A program made the translations under genes and the position numbers. Below the pieces are notes generated by a model. That model ran no database searches, was not told the DNA's origin, and saw only the letters and a program-made list of their open reading frames with translations. 64,000 nt of DNA from Naegleria gruberi (lineage: Eukaryota): the NCBI GenBank assembly GCA_000004985.1, contig GG738859.1; one strand, 5' to 3'. Below, piece by piece: positions 22,096-50,348 of the stretch (position 1 is the first letter of the stretch; each line of letters starts with the position of its first letter).

Positions 22096-23211
22096 TTATA
22101 TAATGTTCAGTGTTTCCAAATCCTTTTGAAGCAAGATATTCTTCACATCATTAAAGACCATCTTGATATTATTGGTGTTGGTGGCTGTTGTTACATGGCT
22201 ATAGAGTTGAGTATTCTTAGAGTTAAGTGATTTGAATTTGTTAATGATGAAATCTCGAGCTGATTCATATTGATGTCCTCCATGGTAATCACTAAAGGCC
22301 ACTCTCAGATCTGCATTCTTAATCTTTTCTCTGAACAGATCATCCTTGTTGAATAAGACAATAATTGGAATGGACTTGAAACAATCAAGCTCACAAATTT
22401 CTCTAAAAAGAAGTAAGCTTTCGTGTATTCTATTGGTAGTCTTATCTTCCTCTAAATTCATATCAAAATCATTAAGTGAGCAAATAAACACGACAGCTGT
22501 AGTATCCACAAAGGCATGAATCCACTTTCTTCTCTCCGTCCTTTGACCACCAACATCTGTGAATTTCCATCTGTATCCATCGGCATCAAATTCAACCTCA
22601 GTAATACCTAGGGTGGTTAATCTGGCTTTGATGATGTCTTCCTGGGTGGCTACATAATCTGGTTTGCATATTCTTTCACAATGATCCAGGAAACTGTTGA
22701 ATTACCAATGATGAAAATTAATTAATATATATTAATTAGAACAATCATTTCTTAAATAACATCTTCAAATAACTTACTATTCAATAGTGTCATTGATGGT
22801 AAATTCAGATCTTTTGGCCAAACACTGTTTCATGCCTGGATCTTTCCACAGTTTTGCAATCTTTCCAGCAATATCCTCTCCATAATTCTCGGTTTTTGTT
22901 GTTAGGATTTTTTGAATTTCAATAACAGGCTCCTTAGCAATAGACATTATCATTGAGGCTGTATCTTCATTCTCCTTCATCAACTCAATTCCTAGATCGT
23001 GCATTGCTTTGAGTATTGCCGAACATCCCTCAATCAAATTCTCTCTCACCACATTCGACATGGAAATCTTTTCCTTCTCTGTGAAGGGCTTATTATTAAT
23101 AATTCTCAATTGTTTAAAGAGTGTACTCTTTCCACTTTGAGCCGTACCTAGCAAAATGAGCTTTAACACTCTCTTTGGTTCATCTTCACCTCCACAGTCA
23201 AAGCAGCCCAT
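22096..23211 (-). CDS. heterotrimeric G protein alpha subunit (divergent), 2 exons (~23211-22778, ~22693-22096), ~344 aa
   Basis: MGCFDCGG... (N-terminal Gly/Cys lipidation signals), P-loop LLGTAQSGKST, switch/G3 DVGGQRTERRKW, NKDD (NKxD), TTATNT (TCAT-like). Intron has GTAAGT donor / CAG acceptor. The helical-domain region is divergent. Confidence 0.85.
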
Positions 23212-30792: not shown

Positions 30793-31018
30793 AATTTTAG
30801 ATTTTAGTGTCTTCCCTTAACTGCACAATAGCCATTTTCATAACGATGCAATCTCAAAATAAATTCATGTTAAAAAAATGTTAGAAAAAAATTAATTCTT
30901 TCATTTTTGGTAGTTTACCATTTTGGTTAATTTATCTTCAATATTTGCTATTATCCTTTTTTGTTTTTTTTACTTTTTGGCTACCTTTTCCAAGTTATCT
31001 TTAAAAAAAACAAGCAAA

Positions 31019-33238
31019 ATGGTAGAATCACCAATTCTTCAAAAAGATCCTAATGAACAGCTGTTGCTACAAAGCCAAAAGCCACTTGGTCAACCACAAC
31101 AGCAACCTTACAATGCCATGCAAATGGAACTCACTCCACAACAGCAAACTCTGGAAAGTGTTGATAGACAAATGACTCAAGCATTTGGTCAACCATTGCC
31201 CCAACAGCAACCCATCCAATTTCAACAGCAACAACCATTAACCAGTAGTAGTGGTACCTTGCCAACTGCTAGCAATTTGGAAAGAAGAGAAGAACCTGAA
31301 AAACTTATTCAACCTTCTGAAGAATTAATGGAAGAGAAACAAGGTGGTAGTGCTCTTGGTGTTAGCAACATTTCTGGTTCTAGTAGTGGAGCTACTCAAC
31401 AAATGTCCATTTCTCCTTCGGTAGAAAAGTCAACCTTGCCACCCTTACCAACTAGTACCTTGCCTCAATCTGAACCATTTAGCCAGGAACAACATATGGT
31501 TAGTCATGATGTGAAAACACCTCACATTCGTGAGTACCCATGTATGAAAGCAGTTGTTACTTGTAACTATCAACAAGATGAACCAGAACACATGCTTGTT
31601 TATGTTGACAAGTATCCAAGACCTATTCGTATGAAATCTGATGAAATTCTTGTCAGAATGAAATGTGCTAGTGTCAATGATTTGGATTACAAAATCTGTC
31701 AAGGTAAAATTCCAGTTGAAATTCAAACTACTCCAATTCATTATCCGCTCATTGTTGGCGCAGATGGATGTGGTATAATTGAGAAATTAGGTGGAGATCC
31801 AACTAATCTCAGAGTAGGTGATTGTGTCTTTGGTTTCACCAATCAATTGGGTACATTTGGTGAGTTTGCTATCTTTAAGGAGAGAGAAGTCATGATGAAA
31901 CCTGACTGGTTGAGTATGGAAATGGCCAGCTGCATTCCATTCAGTGCTCTTGCTGCAATGAATTGTTTCCTTCTTGTTGATAAGAAGAGAAAGAAGAAAC
32001 ATGGTTTATTGGGTCCTTCCTTGTCAGTAATGAATAGAATTAGCAAATCACCTCGCTCAGTTGGTCAATCATCAAGCGTAGAAGAATCCTTTGAGAAAAA
32101 GGTCATTGAAAGCTCACAATCTCATCAGAAACTAACTCATGAAAATGAACCAATTAACCTTGAAGTTGTCAACCAACTGTTAAATGGTGACAAATCTGGT
32201 TCCATTCTCATCCAAGGAGGTGATACTTATATTGGCTCTTGGTGTATCTTACTAGCACGTTACTATTTTGGAGCTCAACGTATCTATACAACCATCAGTA
32301 CAATGGACAATGAAGAATATGTTAGAAAGATGGGTGCTGATGTCATTCTCAATTCACACGATGCCAAATATGAAGAAACCATTGAAAAAGATTTGTTGCA
32401 ATATTGGGAAACATTTTGTTGTGAATTGGATCCTCACAAGAATCAACAAACAATGCAACCTCCAGCAACCTCTACATTGAATACAAGTACTGGTAGTGAA
32501 ACTGTAACCCAACAAATGCAACCAACTTCAATGGTCAATCCACATCAAATGCAAACTACCCAACAAACCATGCCTAGCTCAAACATGCAACAAACTTCAT
32601 ACACAACCACTACAGAGACAGTTCAAGAACAAGTGGGTTTTCCTTCTTCTTCTCAACAAACTCATACAGTTCCAAGTCAAATGGAGTACAAGCCAAGTAT
32701 GATGCATCAAACAGAACCTTCCAATGTTTCCATGTCTCCTCAACAACCATCTCCAACTCATACTCCACTCACTCAATGGCCACATCCTGCCTTTAAATCA
32801 AAGAAGGAAATGGAGAAGTGTAAGCTCTTGATTTCAACACTCCAATTATCAATTGACACAGTTGGTGGTTATGATAATATGCAAAAGTCATTCAATTTGT
32901 TGAATGGAAGTACCAGTCATTACATTACTACCAATCCACCAATTGAGTTGGAACAAAAGAAGGTCAGTGGAAAGGATGTTTGGAAATTGGTAAGTATGGC
33001 AGCTGCAAACAGATTGAAGAGTTTCTTTGCTAATTATCCACATTTCCACCTCTTGCCTGCTGTTCAATGTGAGAGAGAATTGATGGTAGAGTTGATGAAA
33101 TGGTTTGAACAAATGGATAGAGATTGGATCCACAAGTTACTTCCATTCAAGACTTATCCAATGACTGAAGCTGCTCGTGCTATGGCAGATTGTAAAAAGA
33201 ATCCTTTCAAATTAGTGATTAACGTATCCAATGAATAA
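31019..33238 (+). CDS. medium-chain dehydrogenase/reductase (quinone oxidoreductase / zeta-crystallin-like) with Gln/Ser/Thr-rich N-terminal extension and insertions
   Basis: ADH_N/GroES-like segment ...ILVRMKCASVNDLDYKICQGKIP...YPLIVGADGCGIIEKLGGDPTNLRVGDCVFG... Rossmann segment ...ILIQGGDTYIGSWCILLARYYFGAQRIYTTIST...GADVILNSHDAKYEE. Long Q-rich insertions flank these. The first ATG in frame is MVESPILQK; the ORF track starts earlier at a non-ATG codon. Confidence 0.55.
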   Translation: MVESPILQKDPNEQLLLQSQKPLGQPQQQPYNAMQMELTPQQQTLESVDRQMTQAFGQPLPQQQPIQFQQQQPLTSSSGTLPTASNLERREEPEKLIQPSEELMEEKQGGSALGVSNISGSSSGATQQMSISPSVEKSTLPPLPTSTLPQSEPFSQEQHMVSHDVKTPHIREYPCMKAVVTCNYQQDEPEHMLVYVDKYPRPIRMKSDEILVRMKCASVNDLDYKICQGKIPVEIQTTPIHYPLIVGADGCGIIEKLGGDPTNLRVGDCVFGFTNQLGTFGEFAIFKEREVMMKPDWLSMEMASCIPFSALAAMNCFLLVDKKRKKKHGLLGPSLSVMNRISKSPRSVGQSSSVEESFEKKVIESSQSHQKLTHENEPINLEVVNQLLNGDKSGSILIQGGDTYIGSWCILLARYYFGAQRIYTTISTMDNEEYVRKMGADVILNSHDAKYEETIEKDLLQYWETFCCELDPHKNQQTMQPPATSTLNTSTGSETVTQQMQPTSMVNPHQMQTTQQTMPSSNMQQTSYTTTTETVQEQVGFPSSSQQTHTVPSQMEYKPSMMHQTEPSNVSMSPQQPSPTHTPLTQWPHPAFKSKKEMEKCKLLISTLQLSIDTVGGYDNMQKSFNLLNGSTSHYITTNPPIELEQKKVSGKDVWKLVSMAAANRLKSFFANYPHFHLLPAVQCERELMVELMKWFEQMDRDWIHKLLPFKTYPMTEAARAMADCKKNPFKLVINVSNE

Positions 33239-33285: not shown

Positions 33286-36200
33286 TTACTGTTCTTCAAT
33301 ATCTTCAAAATCATCATCGTTTTCAGAGTTGCTATTTCGTGACCAAGCAACTAATCCAATTGCAACATTGACCACATACTTGAAGTAGGTCTTTCCATTG
33401 ATAGTGCACATGGTGGGAGCGTATAAATCTCTTCGTTTCAGTGAATTACCAGCACTTCTTAATCCGTTAAGAGTACTTCTTCCAATGTACATAGAGTCAG
33501 AATCAAAGTCAGCATTGGCAAACATGAATTTGATTTCCACTTTTTCTAATGCATGCTTTTCCTCGTTTTTATCAAATGAGCAGAGAGTTAGGAAGATGGC
33601 ACACTTATCCGATTGGTCATCAACCAGCACTATAATTGTTGAGATAATAATATTTCATTAAAAACTTACTTTTTGTTTCTCCTTTTGGATAGAAACAAAC
33701 ACACCACTTGAAACCAAATGCATTGATAATATCTGAATAACAATCATCACCATTCTCCTCTGATGTAGAAAGAATAGAAACAGTATGAATGGATGTTGGC
33801 AATTCGTCAAAAGTTCTAAAAATCCAAGGGGCATAATGTCTAGAAGATAATTCCTTTTCTCCTTGGTGAATTTGTTCAATTTTCTGAACAGTGGTCTCTG
33901 TTTTGTATTCTGGAATTTCCAACAGCTTGAGACAAACTACAAACTTGTAAATATCAAATTCATCATTTGTTTCGAATGGATGGAATTGAGTTGCATCTAC
34001 ATATTCTCCATAGGAACCACCCAACATTTTAAATTTCTTAACATAGACCAAGTATGTTATTGGGTTAAAGTCGTAATTGCACATCATGTATTGGAGTTTG
34101 ATGTGGTCAAACTTGTCATGTTGTAGTGGGCTCTTTGTGGAATCGAGAGTCAAGTAGATGGAGGAAGTATGTTCATCATCATTTTCATCATCCTTGTCTT
34201 TAGGACAAAAATCAATAATCCATCTGTAGCCATAGGCTTCGAAAGGTTCTGATTCATAGTGTCTTGTTCTACTTCCGCTCTTTGGAATTTTAACTGTTGT
34301 AATGTGGATGGAAGAATCCTTGTAGGATTGTGGAATTCTCTCATGAATGCATTCTAATGGATCCTTTCCTTCATAGCTCTCAATTGAAAGTTTAGAAATA
34401 TAATCATCACCAGGATTGAGTGTCTTGGCAAAATTGTCCAAAGCATGTAAGGTAGGAACGTGATTCTTCAAAATATCTTGATTCATTAAATAGTGAATAA
34501 AGTCCAAAACTTTTGAAATGTGAGGATAGCCTCTGGTTAAAATGTCTGCCATTTGCATAATGTAAAAAACAGGATAATTCTCAATGATACCATAATTATC
34601 CAAAATATGCTGAATTATTTGTTCAATGAGTGGATCAATAGATTCATCACCAGTAAATTCATCAAGTTTGAATAGACCATTGATAGTGTATCTAATTTCT
34701 CCAAGATTGAACAATATCATGGATGCAATTGTAAAGCATCTACAAGATGTCACAAACTCCAAGCTCTTTCCAATGGCTTTTGCTAACTTTTTCTTTCTTT
34801 CATCTGTTACAATCTCTCTATGGTCTCTCATGATATGATCAAGTAATTCGAATATATTGCAAATACCAGTAGAACCTCCACAGCCACTAGGGAATGTTAG
34901 TATGTACTTGTAACAGAAATCATAAATTTTTTCTTGTGGTAGAGGTTCTGATTTAGGGTCGTGAATATATGGATTTTTGCTCAAATATAAATCTAAAGCA
35001 AAATTAGCCAAGGTCATTTCTCTACTCTCCAAAAGAATGTTGACGTAATCCTCCACTGCATGGTAATTATTATCTCCGTAAATCCAACCATGATATGATT
35101 TAAATTCCTCATATTGCTCATCAATTTCCATTTCCTCATTTTCTGGCTCATCTACTACAATGGTAACGAATGGATGTTCCTGTTGGAAAATGGAAAATTC
35201 TTTGGAAAATAGAATATTTTCACAATATTGAACAACTATAAGATCACAGTTTGTGAGTTTTCCAAGGTATGGAAGACAGTTATTTGTAATGGTATTGATA
35301 TGTTCAAGGTATAGGCAAATAAGCTCCTTTTCGTTGAGAGGAAGTAATTGTTCAATAAACTTGTCAGAAAGGTCGGATCCTACAAAGAACAATTCTCGCA
35401 ATCTTGATAATGACAAAATATTGGAAATAAAACCAGGTTCCAAACCAGTGAGGTGTTGAGTTCCAGTGAACATTAGCTTTTTCAAAGATGTTGGAAGGAT
35501 AAAATCTGTAAAATCAGTAACCTCCTCTTCAAATGCACTACACTCCAAGCTCTTTAAATTTTTAAACTCTCTCAGGAATGGAATGTGGCTCTTTTTAATT
35601 CCATATAAATTGAGTTTGGTAATATTTTCTTTAGGTAGGTATTGTGCAAGGGAACCTCCAATGCCATTTCCTTCAACTTTACTGAGTGGAAAGTTCATTT
35701 TTACATTACTCTTCTTAAGTGTTTCATGGAGAGGTTTGAAAACTTTCACTAGTGCTTCATTGGTATTTTCATCACCTTTAACAAATAAATTAATCAAGTT
35801 TGGTGATTTTCTAAGGAATGAAAAGTCCAGATTTGGTTCTTCTAAAATATCTAGAATGAGAGTTTCCAAGCTTGGACCGACCAGAGCATTGATAATCTCC
35901 GAGAATGGTCCCTTTACATAGAGTCCACTTTTAATTTTCAAGTATTTCAGGGAATTTTTCATAGTAGTATTGAGTGATTCCAAACTGGTTTTGGAGGCCT
36001 TGAGGAAGAAGGCATAGAGTTGAAATTTGAGGGTCAATGAGTTCAACTTGGTGAGAGTACTCAGTGTATTTAGAACACCATCAAATGTGAACTTGCTTCC
36101 TTCAAATCTTGGAATAAATTTCAAACATAGTTTTTCTAAATATGGAGCCAGTGTAGAGATTGATTTTTGTGCGTTAACAATGTGAGCCTCAGTGGAGAGA

Positions 36201-37256
36201 ACGTATGGAATATTGAGAGATCTTATATTTCTAAGAGTTTCTGTTTTAAAAATAGTATAAAAGCCACCTTGAATAAGAGTCATTTCTTCGTCCATGTCTT
36301 CATCTTCGTCATCATAATTTGGACATACTACCAATTTAAAGTCTTGTAATTTTTTCAATGATTTTAACATCATTTCAACTGGTTTGTCTTGTAAATTGTC
36401 GCCTCCTACATAAAATTTGACAAGATTAGGACATTGGTTTACAATGCTCTTAACGTTCCTATAAACAACTGGATAGTAAATTTCTAATTCTTCCAAAGTA
36501 GGAGGAAGTTCAATACTAGCCTGTTTCATATCTTGATCATTAACGTCCAATTCGTCGGCATCTCTTCCAAGTGAAAGTATTTTAAGATTTTTGAAATGTT
36601 TTAATAGTGGAAGGTGTTCCAAGAGAGTATTTGAAATTTTAAGACTCGTTATTGTTTCCAATAATTTGCTATTGTTTTTGACCCATTCCTTGAGATAACT
36701 ACCATGTGCTTCATCGAGAGCAAATAATTCCACCTCCTCTAGTGTTTGCAATTTTGACAAATGACTCAGTCCAACATCTGTTTTTGAAAATAATGATAAT
36801 ATTATTAGAGCAATCTCAAGAACAAATAAACCTACCAGTGAGTGAAAGGGTACTAATTAAATCAAAATCTTGAAAATCAATCTTTTTAAGCTTTGGTAAA
36901 TGTACAAGAAAATGATCAACAATCTTCTCAAACTTGGTATTTGTTGTTCCGACACGAATAGAATACTTGGTTTTCATATTAACAAAATAATACCACACCA
37001 AATCTGACAAGTTTTTAGAAACAAGTCTAATACGTAATAATTGATTGGTAGTAAAATAACCAAACAAGTGTTCAACCCAAACATCATGCGGAACACCAAG
37101 AAAATGGTCTATCAAATCCAATCTAAATTCATGATAAAATTGATGATGTTCACTTCCATTACTAGCAACTATTTCCTCCACTTTTGAATATTCTTGCTGC
37201 TGGTGAGACTGCACACCATTTTGCTGCTCCGAATCTTGTGGTGAGGAGTTTTGCAT
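33286..37256 (-). CDS. F-box / leucine-rich-repeat protein with two C-terminal MATH (TRAF-like) domains, ~1290 aa; 3 exons (~37256-36836, ~36777-33670, ~33629-33286)
   Basis: Exon 1: ...DLIDHFLGVPHDVWVEHLFGYFTTNQLLRIRLVSKNLSDLV (F-box). Exon 2: ~500 aa of LxxLxLxxN-type LRRs (LKILSLGRDADELD..., LEELEIYY...), then a helical region, then MATH 1 (HYESEPFEAYGYRWIIDFCPKDKD...IYLTL). MATH 2 spans the last intron (FGFKWCVCFYPKGETK | LVDDQSDKCAIFLTL...NGKTYFKYVVNV). Introns GTAGGT...CAG and GTAAGT...TATAG. Confidence 0.6.
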
Positions 37257-37525: not shown

Positions 37526-38881
37526 TTATATGAAAGTGAGTATCCTCTTATTGGAAGAATCAACAATTAGTAATTCTCCAGTTTTTTCACAAAGACAAAG
37601 AGCATTAGGAAATGAGAATTCATTTCGTCCCTTTCCTTTTCTTCCAAAACTTTTAAGATGATGACCATCCTCACTGAATACTTGAAGTCTATGGTTTGAA
37701 TAGTCACAAACAACTATCCTCTTGTGAACTGAGTCAAAGACAATTGAGCTTGGATATTCCATTCGCCCATTTTCGCTTCCCCTTCCACCAATGATTTTGC
37801 TAGTTTTCCAAATTTCTTGATATTGGTTCGAGTTGTCAATCTTTGTTAAATGGCGTTTCAATATTTGAATTCTGTGAGAAAGACTCTCGGTGACAATCAT
37901 TTCCCCACAACTTGTAAAGTCAATTCCCCAAGGACTTGTCATTGAAATTCTATCCTGAATACCTATTGAGGTTACAGTTTGTCCGTTCAATGTTTTCATC
38001 ACTCGTACACAATTCGAACTTCCATCACAAACGAAAGTGTAATTTCTCTCAACTCGTCTCTCATTGATAATGTCTACAAATTTCCTTGAAACTATTCCAT
38101 TTGGATATTTAACATCAGTGTTTCTCCACAAATATTTTGATTCCTTACATTCAATCATGGATTTGAGATCGTACTTGTAAACAGAATTATCATTACTTGT
38201 AAATAAGAGAGCATCATTTCCGTAGCCATCATAATCTGACTCAATGTGCATATATCGAGGGGTGGAAGGTAAATTGATTGAGGTGAGGAATCTACGAGAA
38301 ATTAAATCAAAGAGTTGAATCATTCTCGACTCCTTCTCACTCACCAAAACACAAGAGCACGAGAAGGAAATTTTAACATCGAAAGGATTTTTAAGGAGAG
38401 GTTGTTGAGAGGAGTTGTTGTCTGGTTGTGAACTTCTTCCATCCTCAATACAAGGTTCTGAGCAATATTCGAGAGAATGAATGAGATGAAAATTCATGGA
38501 GAAACCTTTTGGGGAATCAGAATGGGCCATTCTAATTCGAAGTTGTTCGAAGGAGGTACTTGTTGATTTGTGCAAGTCTATCAAGTGAACAACTACTTGA
38601 TCTGCTGTCGATGTTGTTGTGGTTGAGGCCTGATATTGGAACGTCATTATTTTGCTAAATTCCATGCTTGAAGTAAAATTATTATTAATGAGAGAATCTC
38701 TACAGTTGTTCATATTGTTAGTGTTGTTTTTTCTGATTATTATTTTGAAGAACACAATGGAGCAAAAATTTAAATAGCAAAATTCAATGGTTGTCCTCTT
38801 GGAATTATAATAATCAAAGTTCGAGATAAGTTTCTTGCAGTACTGAGAGACAGGACATTTTCGATGTTCGTCCTTGTACAA
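37526..38881 (-). CDS. NHL-repeat (six-bladed beta-propeller) protein, 451 aa
   Basis: C-terminal half has tandem NHL units: ...SSIVFDSVHKRIVVCDYSNHRLQVFSEDGHHLKSFGRKGKGRNEFSFPNALCLCEKTGELLIVDSSNKRILTF. Uninterrupted ORF; more 5' exons are possible. Confidence 0.6.
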   Translation of the reverse strand: MYKDEHRKCPVSQYCKKLISNFDYYNSKRTTIEFCYLNFCSIVFFKIIIRKNNTNNMNNCRDSLINNNFTSSMEFSKIMTFQYQASTTTTSTADQVVVHLIDLHKSTSTSFEQLRIRMAHSDSPKGFSMNFHLIHSLEYCSEPCIEDGRSSQPDNNSSQQPLLKNPFDVKISFSCSCVLVSEKESRMIQLFDLISRRFLTSINLPSTPRYMHIESDYDGYGNDALLFTSNDNSVYKYDLKSMIECKESKYLWRNTDVKYPNGIVSRKFVDIINERRVERNYTFVCDGSSNCVRVMKTLNGQTVTSIGIQDRISMTSPWGIDFTSCGEMIVTESLSHRIQILKRHLTKIDNSNQYQEIWKTSKIIGGRGSENGRMEYPSSIVFDSVHKRIVVCDYSNHRLQVFSEDGHHLKSFGRKGKGRNEFSFPNALCLCEKTGELLIVDSSNKRILTFI

Positions 38882-39952: not shown

Positions 39953-42900
39953 ATGAGTGAGCAAGAGGATATTCATCAACAAGTAGAAAAATTCTGCTTT
40001 CAAGCAACTGAGGCAATTAACTCTAATAATTTAAAGTCAGCCTTTGAATTTGTTAGTAAAGCTAAAAATTGTATGCCCTCAGACTCTTGGACAAATGAAT
40101 CGTTCTATGAACAAGTTTTAAACGTTAATCTTTTATATGCCGAGTGCGAGTACATCTCTGGCAATCATTCATCAGCAATAGAAATATATCAAAGTATTCT
40201 GCCCAACATTGTGGATAATGTAGACAGGCTGAAAGTCAGATTTTTACTGCTAAAATCATCATCAGCATCATCCAAGTATGAAATTATGTATGACGAATTT
40301 ATTGACTTGCTGGCGTCAAATCCCTCAACACATTGTCTAGTTGCTAATGGTGATGCCTTTACCGAAAAATGGATAGAGTCAACAACAATACAAATCAAGG
40401 AAAGCCTTGAATCATATTCAACACTTAGTGATGTATTACAAATGAAAGAATGTGAGGATGAAGAATCTGTAGCATTTGCTAGATGTTTATTGGAATGTAT
40501 TCAAGGAGTGTACATAGGAAAAAACTCCAACAAAATCTTTCTCTTTGTAACCCCACTTTTATTGTTCAAATCAATGCTAGAAGATGGATTGTACATGGAT
40601 TTAACTCATACCATCTTAACAGCTCTAGGGTAAGATTATTTTATTAGTATCAATTAACTAAATATTATAGATGGCAATTTTCTTATTTGGATGACCCAAA
40701 ACTAGGAAGCGACTTGTCAGAGGTTGGTAGTACCTTAGCAAAAGAGCATCACTCTACAGAAGCAAATTTTGCCCTCACAAAGTTTTTCGAATTGTGTATA
40801 ACGGCTTGTACAGGCGGTCTAGATGATGTTTTGAAGGTTTCGTATGATGCTTTCAAAATTGCAGAAACAGTTGAGGAAATTTCTTGGGGTGCTCAAAGTG
40901 GTTTTGTAAGTTTTAGTTCTTGCTTAAGAGTTTTCTAAATTATTACTATAGTGGCTTGGATTGACAAGTATTTTAAAAGGTTTTGATAAGGATTCGAATG
41001 AAAATCATTTGGAGGAAATCAAGACATTCAACAGAAAATGTAGTAGAGAATTCGAGAGTGATTTACTGGCTTGTATTGAACAAATTCCATTGTTTTTATA
41101 TGGAGCAACTGAGAATTTTTCCCCTAGTTTCATGCTTGACGGTTTTGAAGAGATAACCTTCTCAAGATTAATAGTCTTCTTTACAAAAGCTTTAATTCAT
41201 TTTTTCAAGGGTCAATATCAGGAAGCAGCTGAGCAAATCAATGAATCTGATGATGTGATAGATGACTGCTTTGGTACACCGTTTTACATGTTCTACAAGT
41301 GGTTTTCCTTCATTATTTTATCCTCCTTCTATGAAAAATATGATGATATAATGGCAACCAAAAACCAGAAAAAGTCCAAACTTTCAATAATGGAAGTAAT
41401 GCTTGGTCCCAATGCCAAAGCTCCAAAAACAATGAAAGAAAAGACATTGGAAAGAATTTTAGAGCACGAAAAGGATATTCTTGACTTGCATGCCAAGTAT
41501 CCTCATTTGATGGCAGCTGCTAGATCCATGTGTTCAGCAGAAGTCACTAAATTGCACAATGGAGATAAGGATGAAGTGATTGAGCTTTATGTCAATGCGT
41601 ATGAAGTTTCTGTGAATCAGAATATGCACCTCTATGCTGGTTTGATCCAAAATAGACTGTGTGACTTTTGTGTCTCAAATGAAATAGAGACAAAGTTCAT
41701 CAAATCATACGCAGAAAATGCAATTAAGACATGGAAGATGTGTGGTGCTCATGCAATGGTTTCCAAATTGAATGAGCAATATAAGGATGTACTGACGTTG
41801 GAGGTTGGAGATTCTCCAGAGTTTGAAAATATTGTTCCTATTGACTCGATACCACTGTCCATTGTTCTATCTAAGCAAACTCAAAGTTTCCTTTCATTCT
41901 CTAATTGTGATAGATTGGGAATATTTGTAAAAGAGCCAAACACTAAGGAATTCATTTTATTGTGCGAAAAAGAAAAGGGACACGAGGTAGAAATTTTCGA
42001 CGAGTTGGAACTCTCCCAAGCAGATTTCAAGTTTAGCATCAAGTCCCTTAAGATTTGTCTAAATTGCAAGAATCCTGTAATTATCTCTAATGCTGCTGGA
42101 AGTGACTATACAAGAAATCAAGTTTCTGATTGTGAGTATCTGCAGCAAAACAAAAATGTAAAAGAACAAATGATTATTCCACTGATTGGAGAATCAATAC
42201 TGAGAGGAGCCATAGTTTTTGAGTCATCTGTTGAAGAAACATTCAATAAGAACATGCTCAATAATACCAAGGCCCTTGTTGATACGCTTATTGATGGGTT
42301 GATAATACAGAATGAACAATTTAGAGCCCAAAGAAAGCTTGTTCCATTGGAATCTCTAAAACAATTAGGCAAGGATGCAGGAAGTGTACAGTTAGGAGAT
42401 CATGCCATCAAGAACGCTACCATTATGTGTTTGGAATTGAGAAACTTTACGGAAATAATAGAATCAGGACTAAGCTTTGTAAACTTGTTAATAGGGACAA
42501 TATCTCCAATAATAGAAAACCTAGGTGGATTTATAGAAAATTGTACAGGGCCAAAAATTGTGGCAGTTTTTACTAATTCTTCATCGAAGGCAGTAAGCGC
42601 CTCTTTGGATATTGTAAAAGCTTTGAGAGATTTGGGCAAAAATGTTAATTCAAAGACAACTCCTTCAATAGGTATTGGTATCCATTCAGGTAGTTGTTCT
42701 TTTGGAGTGGTAGGATCTTCTCAAATGTTTTCCATCATGTATTCCGAATCATTTTCAATGTGTTTGGAACTTACCAAACTTTCAAACAGCTTGGGAGCTA
42801 TTGTTGTTTTGACTCAAGATGTTCTCGATAGTCTAAATGCTCAAGAGTTGAAATTTAAATCAAGAAAGCTAGGGAAATTTATTTTTGAAAACAAAAAGAC

Positions 42901-43444
42901 CCATCCTTATTCACTCTTTGAAATTTCAGGACCTGATTGGATTGAATACAGCAATGATATTTCAAAGAATATTTCTCAACAAGTTGAGGAGTGTATTGAC
43001 TTTTTTTCAAAGAAGAAGTTTGACAAGGTTTTAACCATCACAGAGGGTTTAGAAAAGACAGTTAGGGACAAGTTTGATAATAATCCTTCACTCTTAGGAT
43101 CCCTCCCTCATCTCAAACTAATTCAAATGTACAGAGATCAAAGTAAGCGAAATATGAGTGTGACCTCTTTGCTGGGTGATTGGTGCGGAGAAATTAGCAT
43201 TGATCATTCCGGTAATCCACAACATTTATTCGAGCAATCTATAACATCTGAACAAGTACAGGTAACCCCAAAGGCAAATGAAGTGAATGAAGACATTGAA
43301 AAGAAGCTGAGAAGTTTACAAACTCAATTGGAACAACTAAAGTCAGAAAATGAAAACTTGAGATCTATTGCCAAGAATGAAGACTCAGGGATGGGATGTT
43401 TTTGTATGCCTAGCAGGAAGAAGATACATCCAACTAATAAATAA
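39953..43444 (+). CDS. TPR-like / GAF / class III nucleotidyl-cyclase-homology-domain protein with catalytically degenerate cyclase domain and C-terminal coiled coil; 3 exons (~39953-40635, ~40679-40906, ~40952-43444)
   Basis: Helical TPR-like N-terminus. GAF-like block ...FSNCDRLGIFVKEP...IPLIGESILRGAIVFES... Cyclase domain ATIMCLELRNFTEI...GPKIVAVF...IGIGIHSGSCSFGVVGS...FSIMYSESFSMCLEL aligns to FADIVGFT...KIKTIGDAYM...RIGIHTGPVVAGVIG...YDVWGDTVNxASRMES. The first metal Asp becomes Glu and the second Asp is lost. The transition-state Asn/Arg are absent. Ends with a coiled coil (LRSLQTQLEQLKSENENLRS). Donors GTAAGA/GTAAGT. Confidence 0.6.
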
Positions 43445-43458
43445 CAAGTAATTATTTC

Positions 43459-44382
43459 TTAATTGTTGTTTTTAGCCTTCTCTGCCTTTTCTAAACCTGT
43501 TATAAACTGATCCCAAAGAACAAATTGTTTGGAAATGGTTAAGATCTGTAATTCATAATAAATAATAAATATAATTAACACGTTGAAACATACCATACTG
43601 TTATAGGCTGATAATTGTTTGAGAATAGTTTCTGCCTGAATGGTGGAAAGATCATGCTTTTCCTCCATCGATAAATGAAACTGTTTCAAATCTTCGAGCT
43701 TGTTACAAAGTAAGTCCAATTGTTCCCTATCTGAAATCATATCCACAACAGGTAATAACTTTTCCAACTCTTCGAAAGACTTTGACATGTGTTCAATCAT
43801 CTCTTGTTGCTGGTTGATATAATTCAATAGGGCTTCCTTCTTGAGAAGAGATGATGGCAATTCTTCCTGAATATTCTCATAATCTGACGAGGTAAAATTT
43901 GCATACTCTTGCAAATCCTTTGCTTCCTCAATAAAACTCTCATACTCATAAATATTTAAATCTTGTATTTGATCCACAAACTCTTTCACTAGTGGAGTCT
44001 CCAAACTCTCAAAATTCTCCTCAATATCCTTCAACTTTTCCAAAAAACTAGGCTTCTTCTTTTGATTTTTAAATCTATTCCCTATATAATACTCCTGATC
44101 AAACTCTTCCCAAATACTATCATTAACATGCTGATGATGATTCGATTTCTGCAATCCACCACTGGAATTCAACAAGTGACCAGAATCCCACGTTAATTGT
44201 TCCATCGGAAAGAGTCTACACTCCAATTCTCTAATTCTATTCTCCAATTCATCTATATTCATTGTTTTATTCAGAACTGTTCTTGTTGAATCATCATCTT
44301 GATCTTCATGTTCTACTTCTCTATGTTGTATTTGAGGTTGGCGTTGATTTTCAGTCATTTTTTTTAAGGTTTTCTTCTTCAT
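43459..44382 (-). CDS. coiled-coil hypothetical protein (~307 aa); probably one short 3' intron
   Basis: ORF rich in heptad-like E/L/K segments (ELENRIRELECRL..., LEKLLPVVDMISDREQLDLLCNKLEDLKQF). A GTATGT...ACAG intron is likely near the 3' end. No family assigned. Confidence 0.35.
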   Translation of the reverse strand: MKKKTLKKMTENQRQPQIQHREVEHEDQDDDSTRTVLNKTMNIDELENRIRELECRLFPMEQLTWDSGHLLNSSGGLQKSNHHQHVNDSIWEEFDQEYYIGNRFKNQKKKPSFLEKLKDIEENFESLETPLVKEFVDQIQDLNIYEYESFIEEAKDLQEYANFTSSDYENIQEELPSSLLKKEALLNYINQQQEMIEHMSKSFEELEKLLPVVDMISDREQLDLLCNKLEDLKQFHLSMEEKHDLSTIQAETILKQLSAYNSMVCFNVLIIFIIYYELQILTISKQFVLWDQFITGLEKAEKAKNNN

Positions 44383-44492
44383 ACAAAAATCAATGATTCC
44401 TTATCAAAGATCTTCGTCATCGCGACATGCAGTATTACATTTTAAATTATATAATTTTTGTAAAGCGTTTTAAATATATTTAAGGTGCAATA

Positions 44493-46304
44493 ATGAAAAA
44501 GACCAAGAATAAAAAAATGCCACCAAAACATCAAAAAAAGAAGGGATTTTACGGAGGTAAAAAGACTCTCCAAGATTTTGATTCCATCCAGGGAATTTTA
44601 TTCACCTGTAATGGTACTAGGCAAAAGGAAGCTGCACAGGAAGCTCTCGGATTAGTAGAACAGGTTTGTTTCTTGTTGAATAATAGTAATAATAATAGAA
44701 TTTCTTGTTGAATTATTTGATGATGATGAAATTGTTGTTATTATTGCATAACACCATTATTATTTTATTTAATAATTTACTAATTTAATATTTTAATGAA
44801 AGTTTGGAGATAAATTGGTGGAAACGAGTGATACTTTGCAAAATGATATTTTGGAAATAATGACAAAGGAACAAGAGAAACAAATAGCTGCTAGTAAAAA
44901 GAAGCAAGATAGAATTAATGCGAGAATTTCAAGAGAACAACAAGGTGCTGCCTCTTCTTCAGTTGATAAAGCAATAATCAATCCAACAACCACTGATAGT
45001 AGTTCAAATGAAACAAAGGTTGAACTAGTCCCTACTCCTTCAGAACCAGTGAAATTGGAAATTAAATCGGAACAAGATGCTGTAACCAATGTTGCTAGTA
45101 ATGTTTCAACAATTGTGGAAAAAGTGGAAGAGCAGGAAATTAATTCAACAATACAGAAATCATCAGAGGATAAACCATTGGAAGGAGTTGCAGCAACTCC
45201 TGTTAGTGATTCCGATACAGCAATAGCAACAACAACAAATACTACTGTAACATCCGAAGTTAAAGAATCACAAACAACCACTACTTCAGAGGAAAAACAA
45301 AAATTAACAACATGGCAAATGAAGGAAAAGAACAAACCACTTCCAACTGGTTTGGACTTGTCAACAATATTATCATGTGAATATTTGGAAACTGAAGTTA
45401 AAATTGTAAAGGATGGAACTAAGAATTACGAATTATTGGAGACTGGAGTGAATGGTCAACTCTTTGTTCGTATTAGAAATAGAGCTATTTCACCAGTAGC
45501 CGTATGTCAAAAAATCTCAAAACATTTCAAAAAGGCATACGATAATCAAGAAGAAATTTCCTCTCGATTTTTATTCAAAATGTTCCCAATCTGTGACATG
45601 TTCCAAGCCAATGAAAATAATTTAAATAACAGATTTGCAAGTAAGTTTACACAATAATTCTTCATTTTGTGACACTCATAGATATGATTGAAAATAAGGT
45701 TGATAGGACAAAAGCTGTGAAATATGTAGTTAATATCAAATCCCATCACAATAATTCCTTGGACAAGAAAATTATTTATGAAACCATCTCTCAGAGAATG
45801 CCTAATGGATCTGTGGAGTTAAACAATGCCACTGTGGAATTTCATGTCTTCCTCATGAAGGGCAAGTGTTTATTAGGCATTTCTACTGATTGTGATATTT
45901 TCAATTATAACATTAATGCAATGAGACACATGACAACACAAGATGAAATTTTGAAGGAGAACCAAAGAAATGCAAGTAAACGAAAGGCTACTGAAATGTT
46001 AACAGAAACCTCCCTTGAGGTTGCAGATATGATTGAAGTGGAAAATTCCAAGAACACCAATGAGCCATCCGAAAAGGAGGACGAAACAATGGAAGATAAC
46101 AATCCATCAGCATCCAATGCTACTGAAACCGATTCTCAAATCAATCCAAAGACTGAGGAAAATGACCAGGAAATGTATGAATTTTTGGAAGAACCAATCG
46201 TAGTACCTTTGGTGGAAGCAACTGTTTCTTTACAAGTTTATTCAAAGAGGCGAAAAATTGAAAATCATCCCTCTCTTGAATTTGACGATATTAAAGTTAT
46301 TTAA
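44493..46304 (+). CDS. THUMP-domain protein (THUMPD1 / Tan1-like, tRNA acetylation cofactor); 3 exons (~44493-44663, ~44803-45640, ~45682-46304)
   Basis: N-terminus KKKGFYGGKK...GILFTCNGTRQKEAAQEALGLVEQ matches the THUMPD1 GILITCNMNERKCVEEAYSLLNEY block. Later NGQLFVRIRNRAISPVAVCQKI and KAVKYVVNIKSHHNNSLDKKIIYETI...VEFHVFLMKGKCLLGI match the THUMP core. Donors GTTTGT/GTAAGT. Confidence 0.65.
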
Positions 46305-47115: not shown

Positions 47116-50100
47116 ATGAAGAAACTATTATCAACAATGGGAGCTCACGATTCTCAACAACAACAACAAAATCATGGAAATTCATCATCAACAACTCCAC
47201 GAGAACAATTACTTGGTATTCCATTGAGTGGAAAGAGAGCGACAACTAATTTGAGTGGCTATTCGAATCAATCATCCTCCTCCTCACCAAATACCACAAC
47301 AAGTGTCAGCAGTAGCAATGTATTTAGTACAAGTAGTTCGATACTGAGTAATTCGAATAGTGCTGTTTCGTCTCCTCCTCATCATTCTATGCATTTTACA
47401 AATCCAATAACTTATCCATCATCTTCATCATCAGCAACAACAACAGGAGGAGGAGGAGGTAGAAATAGAAGTAACAGCTCCTCTTCAACACATCATCAAT
47501 ATTTGGGAGCTACTTCTCCATCAACCATGTCAACTTCACCACACAATGCCATTTCTCCCAACACTTTACAAAGTCATATTCAAAATATGCAACAAACAGC
47601 AAAGAATGAACAATTACATGCAAAGCAAATTCAATTAGCCAAGATGTATAAATTCCAATTTGAGGAAATTTATGATAATCATGAAACTAGAGCCCTTTTT
47701 AAACAATTTCTTATCAAGAATCAGAACGGAGAAAATATCTATTTTGATAAGACTCTAGATTCCGAGTATAAACCTCTAAAATCGAATAGAAATAGATATT
47801 ATATGGCAAAGAGAATAGTAGAGACGTTTATAAAGGAGGGATCTCCGTATGAAGTGAATTTATCAGAAAAGGTGAAACATGCCTTGTTGAGAGAGTTTGC
47901 AAAGGCAAGTGAAGAAAATTGTCCTTTAGATTTATTTGATTCTGTTCAGTATCAAGTTTTAAGTTCAATGAGAATGGTATGTTTTTTTTATTGATCGATT
48001 TGAATTTGAATTTTTATTATTTGATTTTATAATTATTTGATGATTTGATGATTTGTAATAATTTATTGGAAACTACATAGGATGCCTATCCAAGATTTGT
48101 ACAAAGTGATGAATTTTTAAGTTTTATTGGAAGTAAATTATTAAATGCAAAGAATATGCATCATAAACTGAGGTTTTTAAAGGCCATTAATGCTGTTAGA
48201 AAGGTTTCACCTCTGGAATTATCATCTTCAAAGGCCAATCTCAGAAAGAGTTTGAATGTGAAACAAAAAAAGACTGAGGAAGATCAATTGAAGGAAGCTC
48301 TAATCATGGACCAAATAGAATTGGAAGATAATGCTCATGAAAATTTAATATTACACATTCCTGATGCTGATCCTACATTGACACCTCGATCCTATTATAC
48401 CTACACTTCTGCACCTGCCAATGGTCAAACAGCTCCATCACTCAATTCTCCAAATAATACCAACAATCATGCACATACTCATCAAACATCGGAAATTAGT
48501 GAACCTTCTACAATTAAGAGAAGTATGTCAAATTTGATGGGACATTTCTTTAAGAGTGGCGACAAACAATCAAGTAACGAAAAGAATTCAAACAATAGAA
48601 AGAGTACAGCTGCTACTCCAGTTCAACCCTATGTTCATACCACTAGAAATAGACATTCTAGATCAGGATCTGCTCTTGGTCTTTCTCTGGGTGAGTTGAC
48701 AACAAGTAGTAATAGCATTGGAGTTAAATTGCATGACAGCTTACCGAAAGCTATTCCTCCAATTAACAACTTTATTGTCACACCTGGTAGCGATGATGAA
48801 CATGACGATGAGGAAGATTATTCCAACAATACTGCCGACCATCAAGATAATGAGGATGACGATGACATTCCACTCTCTGAGCACGAAAGAGTTAAAAGAT
48901 TTGACACCATTCTCAGTAAGAGTAACATGTTTGGACAAAATCATAATCACCATCATCATCATCAAGATGAAATGGTTGAAGTTATTGATCCATGGCAAGA
49001 TGTGGAATCTTACATTTCTGGAGATTCTTCTGACGATGATGAAGATGAATTGGATCAAATGGATATTGGAGGAAATTTGGCAGCTATTGCTGGCACTCAT
49101 GTTAATTCCAGTCCTCTTACACACAATACAATTGTTCCAATTCTTGAAGGATTGTCGACTCATATAGAAGATCTACAACTTTCTACAAGAGAAGTTGAAG
49201 CCATCAAATCTGAGTACATGCACTATGTGGATAACAAGTCAGTATTGGATCTTGCAACCATTTTGAAACAAGTAGATGAGAAGGATAAGAAAACTAAATC
49301 AGGATGGTCCATGGTCAATTTGCAACCTAAAAAGAGAAGACTCGGCAGGAGAAGTAAATCAATTTCCTCATTGGACCTGATTGCACAACATTCAGTGAAG
49401 GCCTACTCTGCAAGATTTGACTCTATTGCCACCGATGATATTACATACATGTTGAGAAGATCTTGTCGATTGCCTTACAATGCCTTTTCAGTTTTACAAA
49501 TTTTGGCAGATGAAAGCACGGACGAAAGTATTGTCAATCCGTTATTGACAAGTCCAGCAGAATATATCGAATTTATTGTTAAGGAAACTGAACATGCCTA
49601 TGCCTCATTGATTACTTTAGAAGGTGCCAGATGGCCTTGGCCTCTTAAACAACGTCACTATGTCACCACTGGTACTGTTATTTCTGATATTATCAATGAC
49701 GAAAAGGATAATCCAGGAAGAAAACGTTATGTCATTATCAAGAGAAGTGTTGTAAATAATCCAAAATTGGAAATTACATTGAGTAAGAAGGATAATCCAA
49801 ACAGAGTATTTGGACTCAAATTAGAGGCCTACTTTATCGAATCTTTCAATACCAATGAATGTACATTGACCATGTTCAATGAATGGAAATTCACCAATGC
49901 CAACAAGTGGTCCTTCCCAACCAAACTCTTTAGAAAAACTCTGAGAACCTTCTCCACTGATTTCCATCAAAATTTAATTGACAGATTATCGAGCTCAGCT
50001 GGTCATCAACCAATTTCCTATCATGAATTCATCAGCCATACCAATACAGCTCACGATGTCTCTCCAAGAAACGATCACACTCTCCTCCACACACTCTTCC

Positions 50101-50348
50101 GTAATCAAGCTCTATCTCCATATAAGAAGAAGGAGGAAATTAAGGGTAAAGTTCAGAGTGTTTTCAATACATTATCCCTGATGAGATTATTCGAGTATGA
50201 TCTTCATGAAACTTGTCGAATCATTGAGGAAAGATATCACAATTCAAGTGCTACTACACCATCTGATGATAATAATCAACATCTTGTCAATCCTTCCATT
50301 CACATTGTTTCTGAAGAATCATCTCAGAAACAAACAAAAGTCTTGTAA
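47116..50348 (+). CDS. RGS (regulator of G-protein signalling) domain protein, ~1042 aa; 2 exons (~47116-47976, ~48081-50348)
   Basis: Ser/Asn-rich N-terminus. RGS domain FEEIYDNHETRALFKQFLIKNQNGENIYFDKTLDSEY...AKRIVETFIKEGSPYEVNLSEKVKHALLREF...QYQVLSSMRM | DAYPRFVQSDEFLSFI, split by a GTATGT...CATAG intron. Long C-terminal region without recognised domains (includes a His-run and acidic stretch). Confidence 0.7.

What the first reader, a model, noticed from the sequence alone, without database searches (positions are those of the whole stretch)
39953..43444. TPR-GAF protein with a class III cyclase-homology domain lacking all catalytic residues
The cyclase-fold signature is clear (CLELRNFTE..., IGIGIHSGSCSFGVVGS), but both metal-binding Asp positions and the Asn/Arg of the transition-state motif are replaced. 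So this is probably a pseudo-cyclase used as a regulatory or dimerisation module. It is coupled to a GAF (small-molecule/cyclic-nucleotide sensor) domain and an N-terminal TPR-like region. A sensor-type cyclase-like protein in this organism is unusual, and it sits in a G-protein-rich neighbourhood.
Basis: partly seen in the sequence, partly recalled or inferred. Interest (0 to 1): 0.65.

Follow-up and report, generated by a model that had tools for sequence, protein, structure and literature searches.

The report
Catalytically dead Naegleria cyclase-like protein
This Naegleria gruberi gene is annotated as an adenylate cyclase, but all seven catalytic positions of its cyclase fold are replaced, so it is most likely a conserved non-enzymatic signalling module: a clear pseudoenzyme and probable misannotation, but not a new kind of system.

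Summary
Window 39953-43444 (+) is a three-exon gene. Its 1134-aa product is identical to RefSeq XP_002679040.1, annotated "adenylate cyclase [Naegleria gruberi NEG-M]".

Domains, in order:
- TPR-like helical solenoid (~19-590)
- Divergent but real GAF domain (602-745)
- Conserved helical linker/transducer motif
- Class III cyclase-homology domain (CHD, 790-960)
- Helical extension
- Leucine-zipper-like coiled coil
- Conserved GCFC-plus-basic tail

The protein is a truncated derivative of the kinase-AAA_16-TPR-GAF-output sensor family, without the kinase and ATPase. N. gruberi keeps intact paralogues of that family.

Best reading: a non-catalytic, probably dimeric and membrane-tethered sensor/scaffold. 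It could act alone or by poisoning intact paralogues.

The G-protein-rich neighbourhood is real, but a functional link is unproven.

Verdict: new variant of a known kind, moderate interest.

The parts
39953..40629 (+). Exon 1 (residues 1-225 plus two bases of codon 226); start of the helical solenoid
   Evidence: Sequence and splice sites read; spliced translation is identical to XP_002679040.1
40630..40670 (+). Intron 1 (41 nt, GTAAG...TAG)
40671..40905 (+). Exon 2 (residues 226-304)
40906..40951 (+). Intron 2 (46 nt, GTAAG...TAG). It diverges much faster between strains than the exons (4 differences in 46 nt)
40952..43444 (+). Exon 3 (residues 305-1134 plus stop)
40007..41809 (+). TPR-like alpha-helical solenoid, residues ~19-590 (interrupted by the two introns). 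It is homologous to the helical region that lies between AAA_16 and GAF in kinase-AAA_16-TPR_CHK1-GAF sensor proteins. It is the most conserved part of the protein
41843..42274 (+). Divergent GAF domain, residues 602-745
   Evidence: hhalign to Pfam-annotated GAF domains, probability 94.3%, E 1e-7; AlphaFold pLDDT 83, pTM 0.81; all top 50 Foldseek PDB hits are GAF domains; no Pfam GAF hit for this protein
42275..42406 (+). Long helical linker plus the conserved pre-cyclase motif (RKLVPLESLKQLGKD). P769, L773 and G777 are invariant across divergent family members
   Evidence: Helix H433-462 in the model; aligned to the bPAC segment just upstream of its cyclase domain; invariant columns
42407..42919 (+). 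Class III cyclase-homology domain with all seven catalytic positions replaced. Codons: E799 (42434-42436), N834 (42539-42541), P838 (42551-42553), M896 (42725-42727), E903 (42746-42748), S906 (42755-42757), E910 (42767-42769)
42920..43207 (+). Post-cyclase helical extension ending in the W-x-G-E-I motif (residues 961-1056). It is shared with bacterial and protist relatives
   Evidence: Collinear alignments; helices H669-735 in the model
43274..43375 (+). Predicted leucine-zipper-like coiled coil, residues 1079-1112. ENENLR is invariant, and an Asn occupies a core heptad position
   Evidence: Single long helix H775-809 in the model; invariant columns; the heptad pattern was read from the sequence and is an inference
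43388..43432 (+). Conserved C-terminal tail GMGCFCMPSRKKIHP (G1119, C1120, F1121, C1122, K1127, H1130 and P1131 invariant). It is a candidate S-acylation plus polybasic membrane-anchor motif
   Evidence: Invariant columns; the same tail occurs in metagenomic relatives. Acylation is inferred and was not tested

Best explanation
The gene encodes a pseudo-cyclase: a protein that keeps the class III cyclase fold but cannot make cAMP or cGMP.

Origin. It descends from bacterial-type kinase-AAA_16 ATPase-TPR-GAF-cyclase sensor proteins, which Naegleria still has in active form. This lineage lost the kinase and ATPase and every catalytic residue of the cyclase domain. It gained a C-terminal coiled coil and a Cys/basic tail.

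Proposed mechanism (inferred). The cyclase-like domain and the coiled coil hold the protein as a parallel dimer. The tail tethers it to a membrane through S-acylation and basic residues. The GAF domain, still joined to the cyclase-like domain by the conserved helical linker, senses an unknown small ligand and changes the conformation of the dimer. The output is not a nucleotide. It is a change in what the highly conserved TPR-like solenoid, or the cyclase-like surface, binds.

What is shown: the fold, the loss of catalytic residues, the conservation, the selection and the ancestry.
What is inferred: dimerisation, membrane tethering, ligand sensing and the protein-binding output.
For: Fold:
- Ortholog profile vs solved cyclases, E 2e-18.

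Loss of catalysis:
- The seven catalytic columns read ENPMESE here, while 111 of the 150 nearest relatives in an exhaustive search read DKDRDNR.
- Orthologues read ERGRESH (N. lovaniensis, N. fowleri) and NRSCEDC (Willaertia).

Not a decaying gene:
- Intact collinear orthologues in four species at 40-59% identity.
- 11 synonymous vs 6 non-synonymous differences against a 98.8%-identical strain; pN/pS 0.14; binomial p 1e-4.

Signal path kept:
- GAF fold.
- Linker motif P769/L773/G777 invariant across nine divergent relatives.

Ancestry:
- Collinear with a 1808-aa kinase-AAA_16-GAF-cyclase protein over 92% of its length.
- hhalign probability 99.7%.
- The family has varied outputs (histidine kinase, PP2C, GGDEF-EAL, cyclase).

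Where constraint lies:
- The helical solenoid (38-42% invariant) and the coiled-coil/tail (36%) are more conserved than GAF (20%) or the cyclase-like domain (18%).

Tail:
- The coiled coil plus CF-C plus basic plus (I/V)HP tail is shared with metagenomic relatives.
Against: - No biochemical data exist. Loss of canonical residues makes catalysis very unlikely but does not formally exclude an unorthodox activity.
- Dimerisation, acylation and ligand binding were not tested. No multimer model could be run.
- The GAF ligand is unknown, and GAF is among the least conserved parts, which weakens the 'sensor' part of the model.
- Intact paralogues with the same module exist in N. gruberi. A role through heterodimers is therefore not excluded.
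- Glu at the first metal site could still bind a metal.
Confidence: 0.6

Rival explanations
1. Dominant-negative or regulatory partner of active paralogues. The dead cyclase domain heterodimerises with the intact cyclase domain of kinase-AAA-TPR-GAF-cyclase paralogues and silences or gates them. In class III cyclases each active site takes its metal-binding Asp residues from one subunit and its Lys/Asp/Asn/Arg from the other. A subunit lacking both sets therefore leaves both sites of a heterodimer incomplete.
For: - N. gruberi has intact paralogues with the same helical-GAF-linker-cyclase-extension module and the DKDRDNR signature: XP_002671953.1 (2148 aa) and XP_002678939.1 (854 aa, on the same 530-kb scaffold as the candidate).
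- These align with the candidate from the end of GAF to the W-x-G-E-I motif at 25% identity, E 1e-29.
- The composition of the active site across the dimer is established knowledge of class III cyclases (mammalian C1/C2, soluble guanylate cyclase alpha/beta).
Against: - At 25% identity the dimer interfaces may no longer match.
- The candidate has its own coiled coil, which the intact paralogues lack, and this favours homodimers.
- The strongest conservation is in the helical solenoid, not in the cyclase-like domain.
- No interaction was tested.
Confidence: 0.2
2. Nucleotide-binding sensor. The cyclase-like pocket still binds ATP, GTP or a cyclic nucleotide without turnover and uses it as a ligand, as reported for a bacterial class III cyclase-like ATP-binding protein.
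For: - Ser902-Glu903 (at the position of the substrate-specifying Gly-Asp) is invariant in all orthologues.
- The glycine-rich structural motifs of the pocket are kept.
Against: - The base-specifying Lys, the phosphate Arg and both metal ligands are all replaced, and they differ between orthologues (N/R/R/R, M/R/R/C, P/G/G/S).
- That variation argues against a conserved nucleotide pocket.
Confidence: 0.1
3. It is a working adenylate or guanylate cyclase after all, as the RefSeq name says, using non-canonical residues.
For: - RefSeq/UniProt name 'adenylate cyclase'.
- Borderline Pfam Guanylate_cyc hit.
- Glu at the first metal position could bind metal.
Against: - Zero of seven catalytic positions are kept, including Pro at the second metal site and Glu in place of the transition-state Arg.
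- The replacements are not conserved among orthologues, so no alternative catalytic set is evident.
- The name is an automatic annotation.
Confidence: 0.04
4. Decaying pseudogene or gene-model artefact.
For: - Weak Pfam scores.
- A metagenome gene caller produced a different, intron-retaining model (P0001).
Against: - Open frame of 1134 codons with canonical introns.
- Full-length orthologues in four species.
- pN/pS 0.14, while intron 2 diverges about five times faster than synonymous sites.
Confidence: 0.02

Closest known systems
Kinase-AAA_16-TPR-GAF-cyclase proteins of bacteria and protists (e.g. the 1808-aa bacterial P0006; N. gruberi XP_002671953.1, 2148 aa; N. lovaniensis XP_044543424.1)
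   Same: The TPR-like solenoid, GAF, helical linker motif, class III cyclase domain and post-cyclase helical extension ending in W-x-G are collinear with the candidate.
   Different: Those proteins have an N-terminal Ser/Thr-kinase(-like) domain and an AAA_16 P-loop ATPase, and keep the full DKDRDNR catalytic set. The candidate starts at the solenoid, has 0 of 7 catalytic residues, and adds a coiled coil and a Cys/basic tail.
Candida albicans CHK1 / S. pombe Mak2-Mak3 type sensor kinases, and cyanobacterial 'trifunctional Ser/Thr kinase/ATP-binding/histidine kinase' proteins (Pfam PF25503 TPR_CHK1)
   Same: They share the sensor core: the helical region after AAA_16, followed by GAF (weak PF25503 hit in the Willaertia orthologue). 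The architecture of CHK1 is described in PMC9069115.
   Different: Their output is a histidine kinase/receiver (or PP2C, GGDEF-EAL, sigma-54 activator) rather than a cyclase fold. The kinase and ATPase are present.
Solved class III cyclase domains: CyaB (3r5g), Cya2 (2w01), CyaC (1wc1), bPAC (5m27), OaPAC (4yus)
   Different: All of these are active enzymes with both metal Asp and the Asn/Arg pair. The candidate has none of them.
Half-degenerate heterodimeric cyclases (mammalian membrane adenylyl cyclase C1/C2; soluble guanylate cyclase alpha/beta)
   Same: A cyclase-fold domain in which catalytic residues have been lost and the remaining pocket or surface serves regulation.
   Different: There, each subunit keeps one complementary half of the residues, so one active site survives (established knowledge). 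Here both halves are lost, so no partner can restore a site.
Class III adenylyl cyclase-like ATP-binding protein of Pseudomonas aeruginosa (PDB 6yii)
   Different: It is bacterial, has a different architecture (transcriptional regulator) and binds ATP. There was no sequence-level hit to the candidate profile at E<=1, and ATP binding by the candidate is untested.
Degenerate GGDEF domains used as receptors or scaffolds (e.g. LapD 3pjx, FimX 3hva)
   Different: They belong to a different family and bind c-di-GMP. The resemblance is by analogy only (own knowledge).

Membership tests
Class III nucleotidyl cyclase (catalytically competent) | Cyclase-homology-domain fold | tested here: met
Class III nucleotidyl cyclase (catalytically competent) | Two metal-binding aspartates | tested here: not met
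   E799 and P838. Orthologues have E/E/N and G/G/S. 111 of 150 relatives have D and D along with the rest of the canonical set
Class III nucleotidyl cyclase (catalytically competent) | Transition-state Asn and Arg | tested here: not met
   S906 and E910. Orthologues have S/S/D and H/H/C
Class III nucleotidyl cyclase (catalytically competent) | Substrate-specifying pair (Lys/Asp or Glu/Cys) and phosphate-binding Arg | tested here: not met
   N834, E903 and M896
Class III nucleotidyl cyclase (catalytically competent) | Pfam Guanylate_cyc gathering score | tested here: inconclusive
   22.2 bits for exon 3 alone and 21.2 bits for the full protein, against a cut-off of 21.9
Class III nucleotidyl cyclase (catalytically competent) | cAMP/cGMP synthesis; dimer formation | not testable with these tools
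   Needs an enzyme assay and a solution-state or multimer analysis
GAF domain | GAF fold | tested here: met
GAF domain | Match to Pfam GAF profiles | tested here: not met
   No hit for this protein. The Willaertia orthologue scores 17.7 bits, below the 22.4 cut-off. Homology is shown only by profile-profile alignment, 94.3%
GAF domain | Small-molecule ligand binding | not testable with these tools
   The ligand is unknown, and I could not score a cyclic-nucleotide-binding signature reliably
Kinase-AAA_16-TPR_CHK1-GAF-output sensor proteins | Helical TPR_CHK1-like region followed by GAF and a C-terminal output domain, collinear | tested here: met
   BLASTP collinear over residues 9-1050; hhalign 99.7%, E 6e-26
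Kinase-AAA_16-TPR_CHK1-GAF-output sensor proteins | N-terminal Ser/Thr protein kinase domain | tested here: not met
   The protein begins at the solenoid, and there is no Pkinase hit. The same start is seen in the N. fowleri and Willaertia orthologues
Kinase-AAA_16-TPR_CHK1-GAF-output sensor proteins | AAA_16 (STAND-type) P-loop ATPase | tested here: not met
   No AAA_16 hit. It is present in relatives P0006, P0030, P0035 and P0045
Complementary half-site cyclase subunits (C1/C2, sGC alpha/beta type) | Retention of one complementary set of catalytic residues, either the metal set or the Lys/Asp/Asn/Arg set | tested here: not met
   Both sets are lost. A metagenomic relative (L003) does keep D, K, D while losing Asn/Arg

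The most novel reading that the evidence does not exclude
The dead cyclase fold has been kept as a G-alpha-binding surface. On this reading the protein is a membrane-tethered, non-catalytic G-protein effector or scaffold, a 'cyclase without cyclase activity' downstream of Naegleria's expanded G-alpha family. The GAF domain would add a second input.

Hints:
- Three G-alpha genes and one RGS gene lie in the window.
- In Willaertia the orthologue is transcribed head-to-head with a G-alpha gene only 134 bp away. That gene's best match in the window is the copy at 22.1-23.2 kb.
- The conserved C-terminal 'MGCFC' resembles the N-terminal acylation motif of those G-alphas: 'MGCFDC' in N. gruberi and 'LGCFC' in Willaertia.

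Against: no G-alpha gene lies within 10 kb in N. fowleri or within 5.7 kb in N. lovaniensis. Eukaryotic gene order is also weak evidence of function.
Probability: 0.08. Interest if true: 0.75.

Novelty: new variant of a known kind. Interest (0 to 1): 0.42.

Why it matters
- It corrects a public annotation. XP_002679040.1 and its N. fowleri and N. lovaniensis orthologues are named adenylate or guanylate cyclase, but they almost certainly make no cyclic nucleotide. Counts of 'cyclases' in Naegleria (about 80 in N. fowleri) therefore include non-enzymes.
- It gives a clean, evolutionarily old example of a cyclase-fold domain that has lost every catalytic residue while staying under selection, together with its sensor (GAF) and linker. 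Intact paralogues and intermediate relatives are available for comparison. This makes it a useful natural experiment on what the class III fold does apart from catalysis: dimerisation, allosteric relay or partner binding.
- One orthologue is in the pathogen N. fowleri.
- Pseudoenzymes are common, however, and no new principle is demonstrated.

Tried and rejected
- Pfam alone gave only a borderline cyclase hit and no GAF or TPR hit. I needed ortholog profiles, profile-profile alignment and structure prediction.
I modelled the exon-3 product (residues 305-1134) and the GAF segment instead, so residues 1-304 were not modelled.
- Word-indexed homologue searches found no Naegleria paralogue. The paralogues appeared only in the exhaustive profile search followed by name look-up. 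An interim conclusion of 'single-copy, no intact partner' was therefore dropped.
- The AlphaFold-database fold library was unavailable.
- No paper in the held library mentions the accession numbers. The paper on PDB 6yii is not held.
- No second cyclase domain is encoded in the window.
- The G-alpha synteny test gave a mixed result: present in Willaertia, absent in N. fowleri and N. lovaniensis. I kept it only as a lead.
- The 'pseudogene' reading was rejected on orthologue conservation and pN/pS.
- I could not score a cyclic-nucleotide-binding signature in the GAF domain reliably, so I make no claim about its ligand.
- The organisms behind the metagenomic relatives (P0030, P0035, P0043, P0045) could not be identified. 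Their contigs only look eukaryotic.
Full report
**What is there.** The window is AT-rich eukaryotic DNA (GC ~0.34). The finding spans one gene on the + strand with three exons: 39953-40629, 40671-40905 and 40952-43444. They are joined across two short GTAAG...TAG introns. The spliced 1134-aa product is identical to XP_002679040.1 / EFC46296.1 / D2VAF0, named 'adenylate cyclase [Naegleria gruberi strain NEG-M]'. The window is therefore N. gruberi.

**The cyclase fold is real.** Pfam alone is not convincing. Guanylate_cyc scores 22.2 bits for exon 3 and 21.2 bits for the whole protein, against a cut-off of 21.9. Stronger evidence settles the point:
- A profile of the four orthologues matches solved class III cyclases over the whole domain plus the upstream linker. 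bPAC scores E 4e-19 to 2e-18, and OaPAC, CyaB, Cya2 and CyaC also match.
- tblastn with intact cyclase domains finds window 42386-42898 at E 3e-22 and nothing else in the window.

**The catalytic residues are all gone.** I aligned the 150 best relatives from an exhaustive profile search to the ortholog profile. That search covered 1.84 billion representative proteins and returned 28,045 hits at E<=0.001. I then read seven columns: metal Asp 1, substrate Lys, metal Asp 2, phosphate Arg, substrate Asp, transition-state Asn and transition-state Arg.

| Sequence | Seven catalytic columns |
|---|---|
| 111 of the 150 nearest relatives | DKDRDNR |
| Candidate (E799, N834, P838, M896, E903, S906, E910) | ENPMESE |
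| N. lovaniensis and N. fowleri orthologues | ERGRESH |
| Willaertia magna orthologue | NRSCEDC |

These readings come and agree with the pairwise alignments to Cya2 and bPAC. The first metal Asp is replaced conservatively, by Glu. The second is Pro, and the transition-state Arg is Glu. The replacements differ between orthologues, so no alternative catalytic set is conserved. The glycine-rich structural motifs of the fold are kept.

**GAF and the TPR-like region.** No Pfam GAF or TPR model hits this protein. The Willaertia orthologue gives sub-threshold GAF and TPR_CHK1 (PF25503) hits.

Profile-profile alignment of the ortholog alignment against the helical-plus-GAF region of twelve bacterial kinase-AAA_16-...-GAF proteins gives:
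- 99.7% probability (E 6e-26) for residues 19-745
- 98.6% for the N-terminal 19-435 alone
- 94.3% (E 1e-7) for the GAF segment alone

**Ancestry.** The protein is collinear over 92% of its length with a 1808-aa bacterial protein carrying Pkinase, AAA_16, GAF and Guanylate_cyc domains. The wider family pairs the same kinase-ATPase-helical-GAF core with other outputs: histidine kinase, PP2C, GGDEF-EAL or sigma-54 activator. This is the architecture known from Candida CHK1 (PMC9069115). The candidate starts exactly where the helical region starts, and so lacks the kinase and the ATPase.

Naegleria retains full-length, catalytically intact members:
- N. gruberi XP_002671953.1 (2148 aa)
- N. gruberi XP_002678939.1 (854 aa), a near-identical partial copy on the same 530-kb scaffold as the candidate
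- N. lovaniensis XP_044543424.1 and XP_044543369.1

The N. gruberi paralogue aligns with the candidate at 25% identity from the end of GAF to the C-terminal W-x-G-E-I motif.

Unnamed relatives from eukaryote-like metagenome or read-archive contigs show intermediate states:
- P0035 has a kinase-like domain, AAA_16, GAF and a dead cyclase domain (NRDSSST).
- The gene in L003 has a kinase-like domain and AAA_16. Its solenoid is very similar to the candidate's (479 bits). Its cyclase domain keeps D, K, D but has lost Asn/Arg, and it has the same C-terminal tail.

After the cyclase-like domain come three elements:
- A helical extension shared with the relatives.
- A predicted coiled coil at residues 1079-1112. 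It is a single long helix in the model, with ENENLR invariant. Read from the sequence, it has a 3-4 hydrophobic spacing with an Asn at a core position.
- A tail, GMGCFCMPSRKKIHP, in which G, C, F, C, K, H and P are invariant across the four species. The tail recurs in metagenomic relatives as 'SCFPCLTSPKKIHPM' and 'KCLPCFTSPK'.

I read the tail as a candidate S-acylation plus polybasic membrane anchor. This is an inference.

**Selection.** Orthologues exist in N. lovaniensis (57-59% identity), N. fowleri (~55%) and Willaertia magna (40%), all full-length and collinear. Against a 98.8%-identical N. gruberi strain recovered from a metagenome (L001), the coding region shows 11 synonymous and 6 non-synonymous differences. 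That gives pS 0.0165, pN 0.0023, a ratio of 0.14 and binomial p 1e-4. Intron 2 has 4 differences in 46 nt.

Conservation is uneven:

| Region | Columns invariant across four species |
|---|---|
| Helical solenoid | 38-42% |
| Coiled coil and tail | 36% |
| GAF | 20% |
| Cyclase-like domain | 18% |

In addition, the linker motif P769/L773/G777 is invariant even across nine divergent family members.

**Mechanism.** Shown so far: the fold is kept, catalysis is lost, the gene is under constraint, and it descends from active sensor-cyclases.

Inferred: class III cyclases are obligate dimers. Each active site takes its metal Asp residues from one subunit and its Lys/Asp/Asn/Arg from the other (established knowledge for C1/C2 and sGC). 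This protein lacks both sets. It can therefore neither be active as a homodimer nor complement a partner, and in a heterodimer it would kill both sites.

I favour (0.6) a non-catalytic dimeric module held by the cyclase-like domain and the coiled coil, and tethered to a membrane by the tail. In this model the GAF-linker-cyclase relay is kept as a conformational switch, and the well-conserved solenoid is the partner-binding output.

The main rival (0.2) is a dominant-negative or gating partner of the intact paralogues. This is possible because they exist, but the 25% identity and the private coiled coil weaken it. A nucleotide-binding sensor role (0.1) has a solved precedent (PDB 6yii), but the pocket residues vary between orthologues. 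Residual catalysis (0.04) and pseudogene or artefact (0.02) are unlikely.

**Neighbourhood.** The window holds three G-alpha genes (22096-23211 on the - strand; 28440-29357 and the divergent 29576-30661 on the + strand) and an RGS-domain gene at 47116-47994. In Willaertia the orthologue lies head-to-head with a G-alpha gene 134 bp away. That gene's best match in the window is the 22.1-23.2 kb copy, at 50% and 42% identity for its two exons.

In N. fowleri, however, no G-alpha lies within 10 kb, and in N. lovaniensis none lies within the 5.7 kb available. There only the downstream dynactin-p22-like neighbour is conserved. N. fowleri has 13 G-alpha genes and 80 putative cyclases (PMC9283941). 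The tail's 'MGCFC' resembles the G-alpha N-termini 'MGCFDC' and 'LGCFC'. I treat a G-alpha link as the most novel reading that is not excluded (probability ~0.08), not as a finding.

**Comparison and novelty.** The protein works like known pseudoenzymes built on nucleotidyl-cyclase folds: half-degenerate C1/C2 and sGC subunits, the P. aeruginosa cyclase-like ATP-binding protein, and degenerate GGDEF receptors. Its membership status is as follows:
- It is a member of the class III fold family, but it fails every catalytic criterion.
- It shares the sensor core of the kinase-AAA_16-TPR-GAF family, but it lacks two defining domains of that family.
- It cannot be a complementary half-site subunit.

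I file it as a new variant of a known kind: a kinase-less, ATPase-less, fully dead, tail-anchored derivative that is conserved across Naegleria and Willaertia.

**Limits.**
- No biochemistry or multimer modelling was possible.
- Residues 1-304 were not modelled.
- The organisms behind the unnamed relatives are unknown.
- The strain comparison rests on only 17 substitutions.
- I did not survey all Naegleria cyclases for other dead members.

Noticed in passing
window 22096-23211 (-), 28440-29357 (+), 29576-30661 (+), 47116-47994 (+): Three G-alpha genes lie in the window. One is split by an intron, two are in tandem, and one of the tandem pair is highly divergent (62 bits). An RGS-domain gene is also present. 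Together they form a local G-protein signalling cluster.
   Followed up: partly
L005 8805-9867 (-) next to 10001-13613 (+) (Willaertia magna JBEGDK010000153.1): The Willaertia orthologue of the pseudo-cyclase is transcribed divergently from a G-alpha gene only 134 bp away. That gene's best match in the window is the copy at 22.1-23.2 kb (50%/42% identity). The linkage is absent in N. fowleri within 10 kb, and in N. lovaniensis within the 5.7 kb available.
   Followed up: partly
window 43388-43432 (+) and 23173-23211 (-): The conserved C-terminal 'GMGCFC' of the pseudo-cyclase resembles the N-terminal acylation-type motif of the nearby G-alpha ('MGCFDCGG') and of the Willaertia neighbour ('MVLGCFCADD').
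   Followed up: no
N. gruberi XP_002678939.1 (P0046) and XP_002671953.1 (P0200); outside the window: An 854-aa intact helical-GAF-cyclase gene model on the same 530-kb scaffold as the candidate is more than 90% identical to the C-terminal part of a 2148-aa kinase-AAA-GAF-cyclase gene on another scaffold. It is either a recent partial duplication or a truncated gene model.
   Followed up: no
L003 1420-6972 (+) (JGI metagenome 3300062135): A eukaryote-like metagenomic gene was split into three ORFs by a prokaryotic gene caller. It has a kinase-like domain, AAA_16, and a solenoid very close to the candidate's. It apparently has no GAF. Its cyclase domain keeps the metal Asp residues and Lys but has lost Asn/Arg (a 'C1-like' half-site), and it has the same coiled coil and 'CFPCLTSPKKIHPM' tail.
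   Followed up: partly
L001 (ENA metagenome ERZ929261), aligned to window 40111-44500: A 98.8%-identical N. gruberi strain turned up in a metagenome. Its called protein (P0001) reads through intron 2, because a 1-nt deletion and substitutions remove the in-frame stop. This is a gene-calling artefact, not an isoform.
   Followed up: yes
window 50798-51904 (+): An ORF with a microbial-type terpene synthase C-terminal domain (PF19086, E 1.5e-8) in an amoeboflagellate genome.
   Followed up: no
window 43459-44382 (-): A dynactin p22-like gene lies convergent with, and only 14 bp from, the stop codon of the pseudo-cyclase. The same neighbour is conserved in N. fowleri and in the second N. gruberi strain.
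   Followed up: partly
window 37526-38881 (-), 33620-36760 (-), 30923-33238 (+), 45669-46304 (+): Other neighbours are an NHL-repeat beta-propeller, a MATH-domain protein, a long protein with zinc-dependent alcohol dehydrogenase domains, and a THUMP-domain ORF. Several large ORFs have no Pfam match (19504-21924, 24140-26185, 48156-50348, 55022-56929).
   Followed up: no
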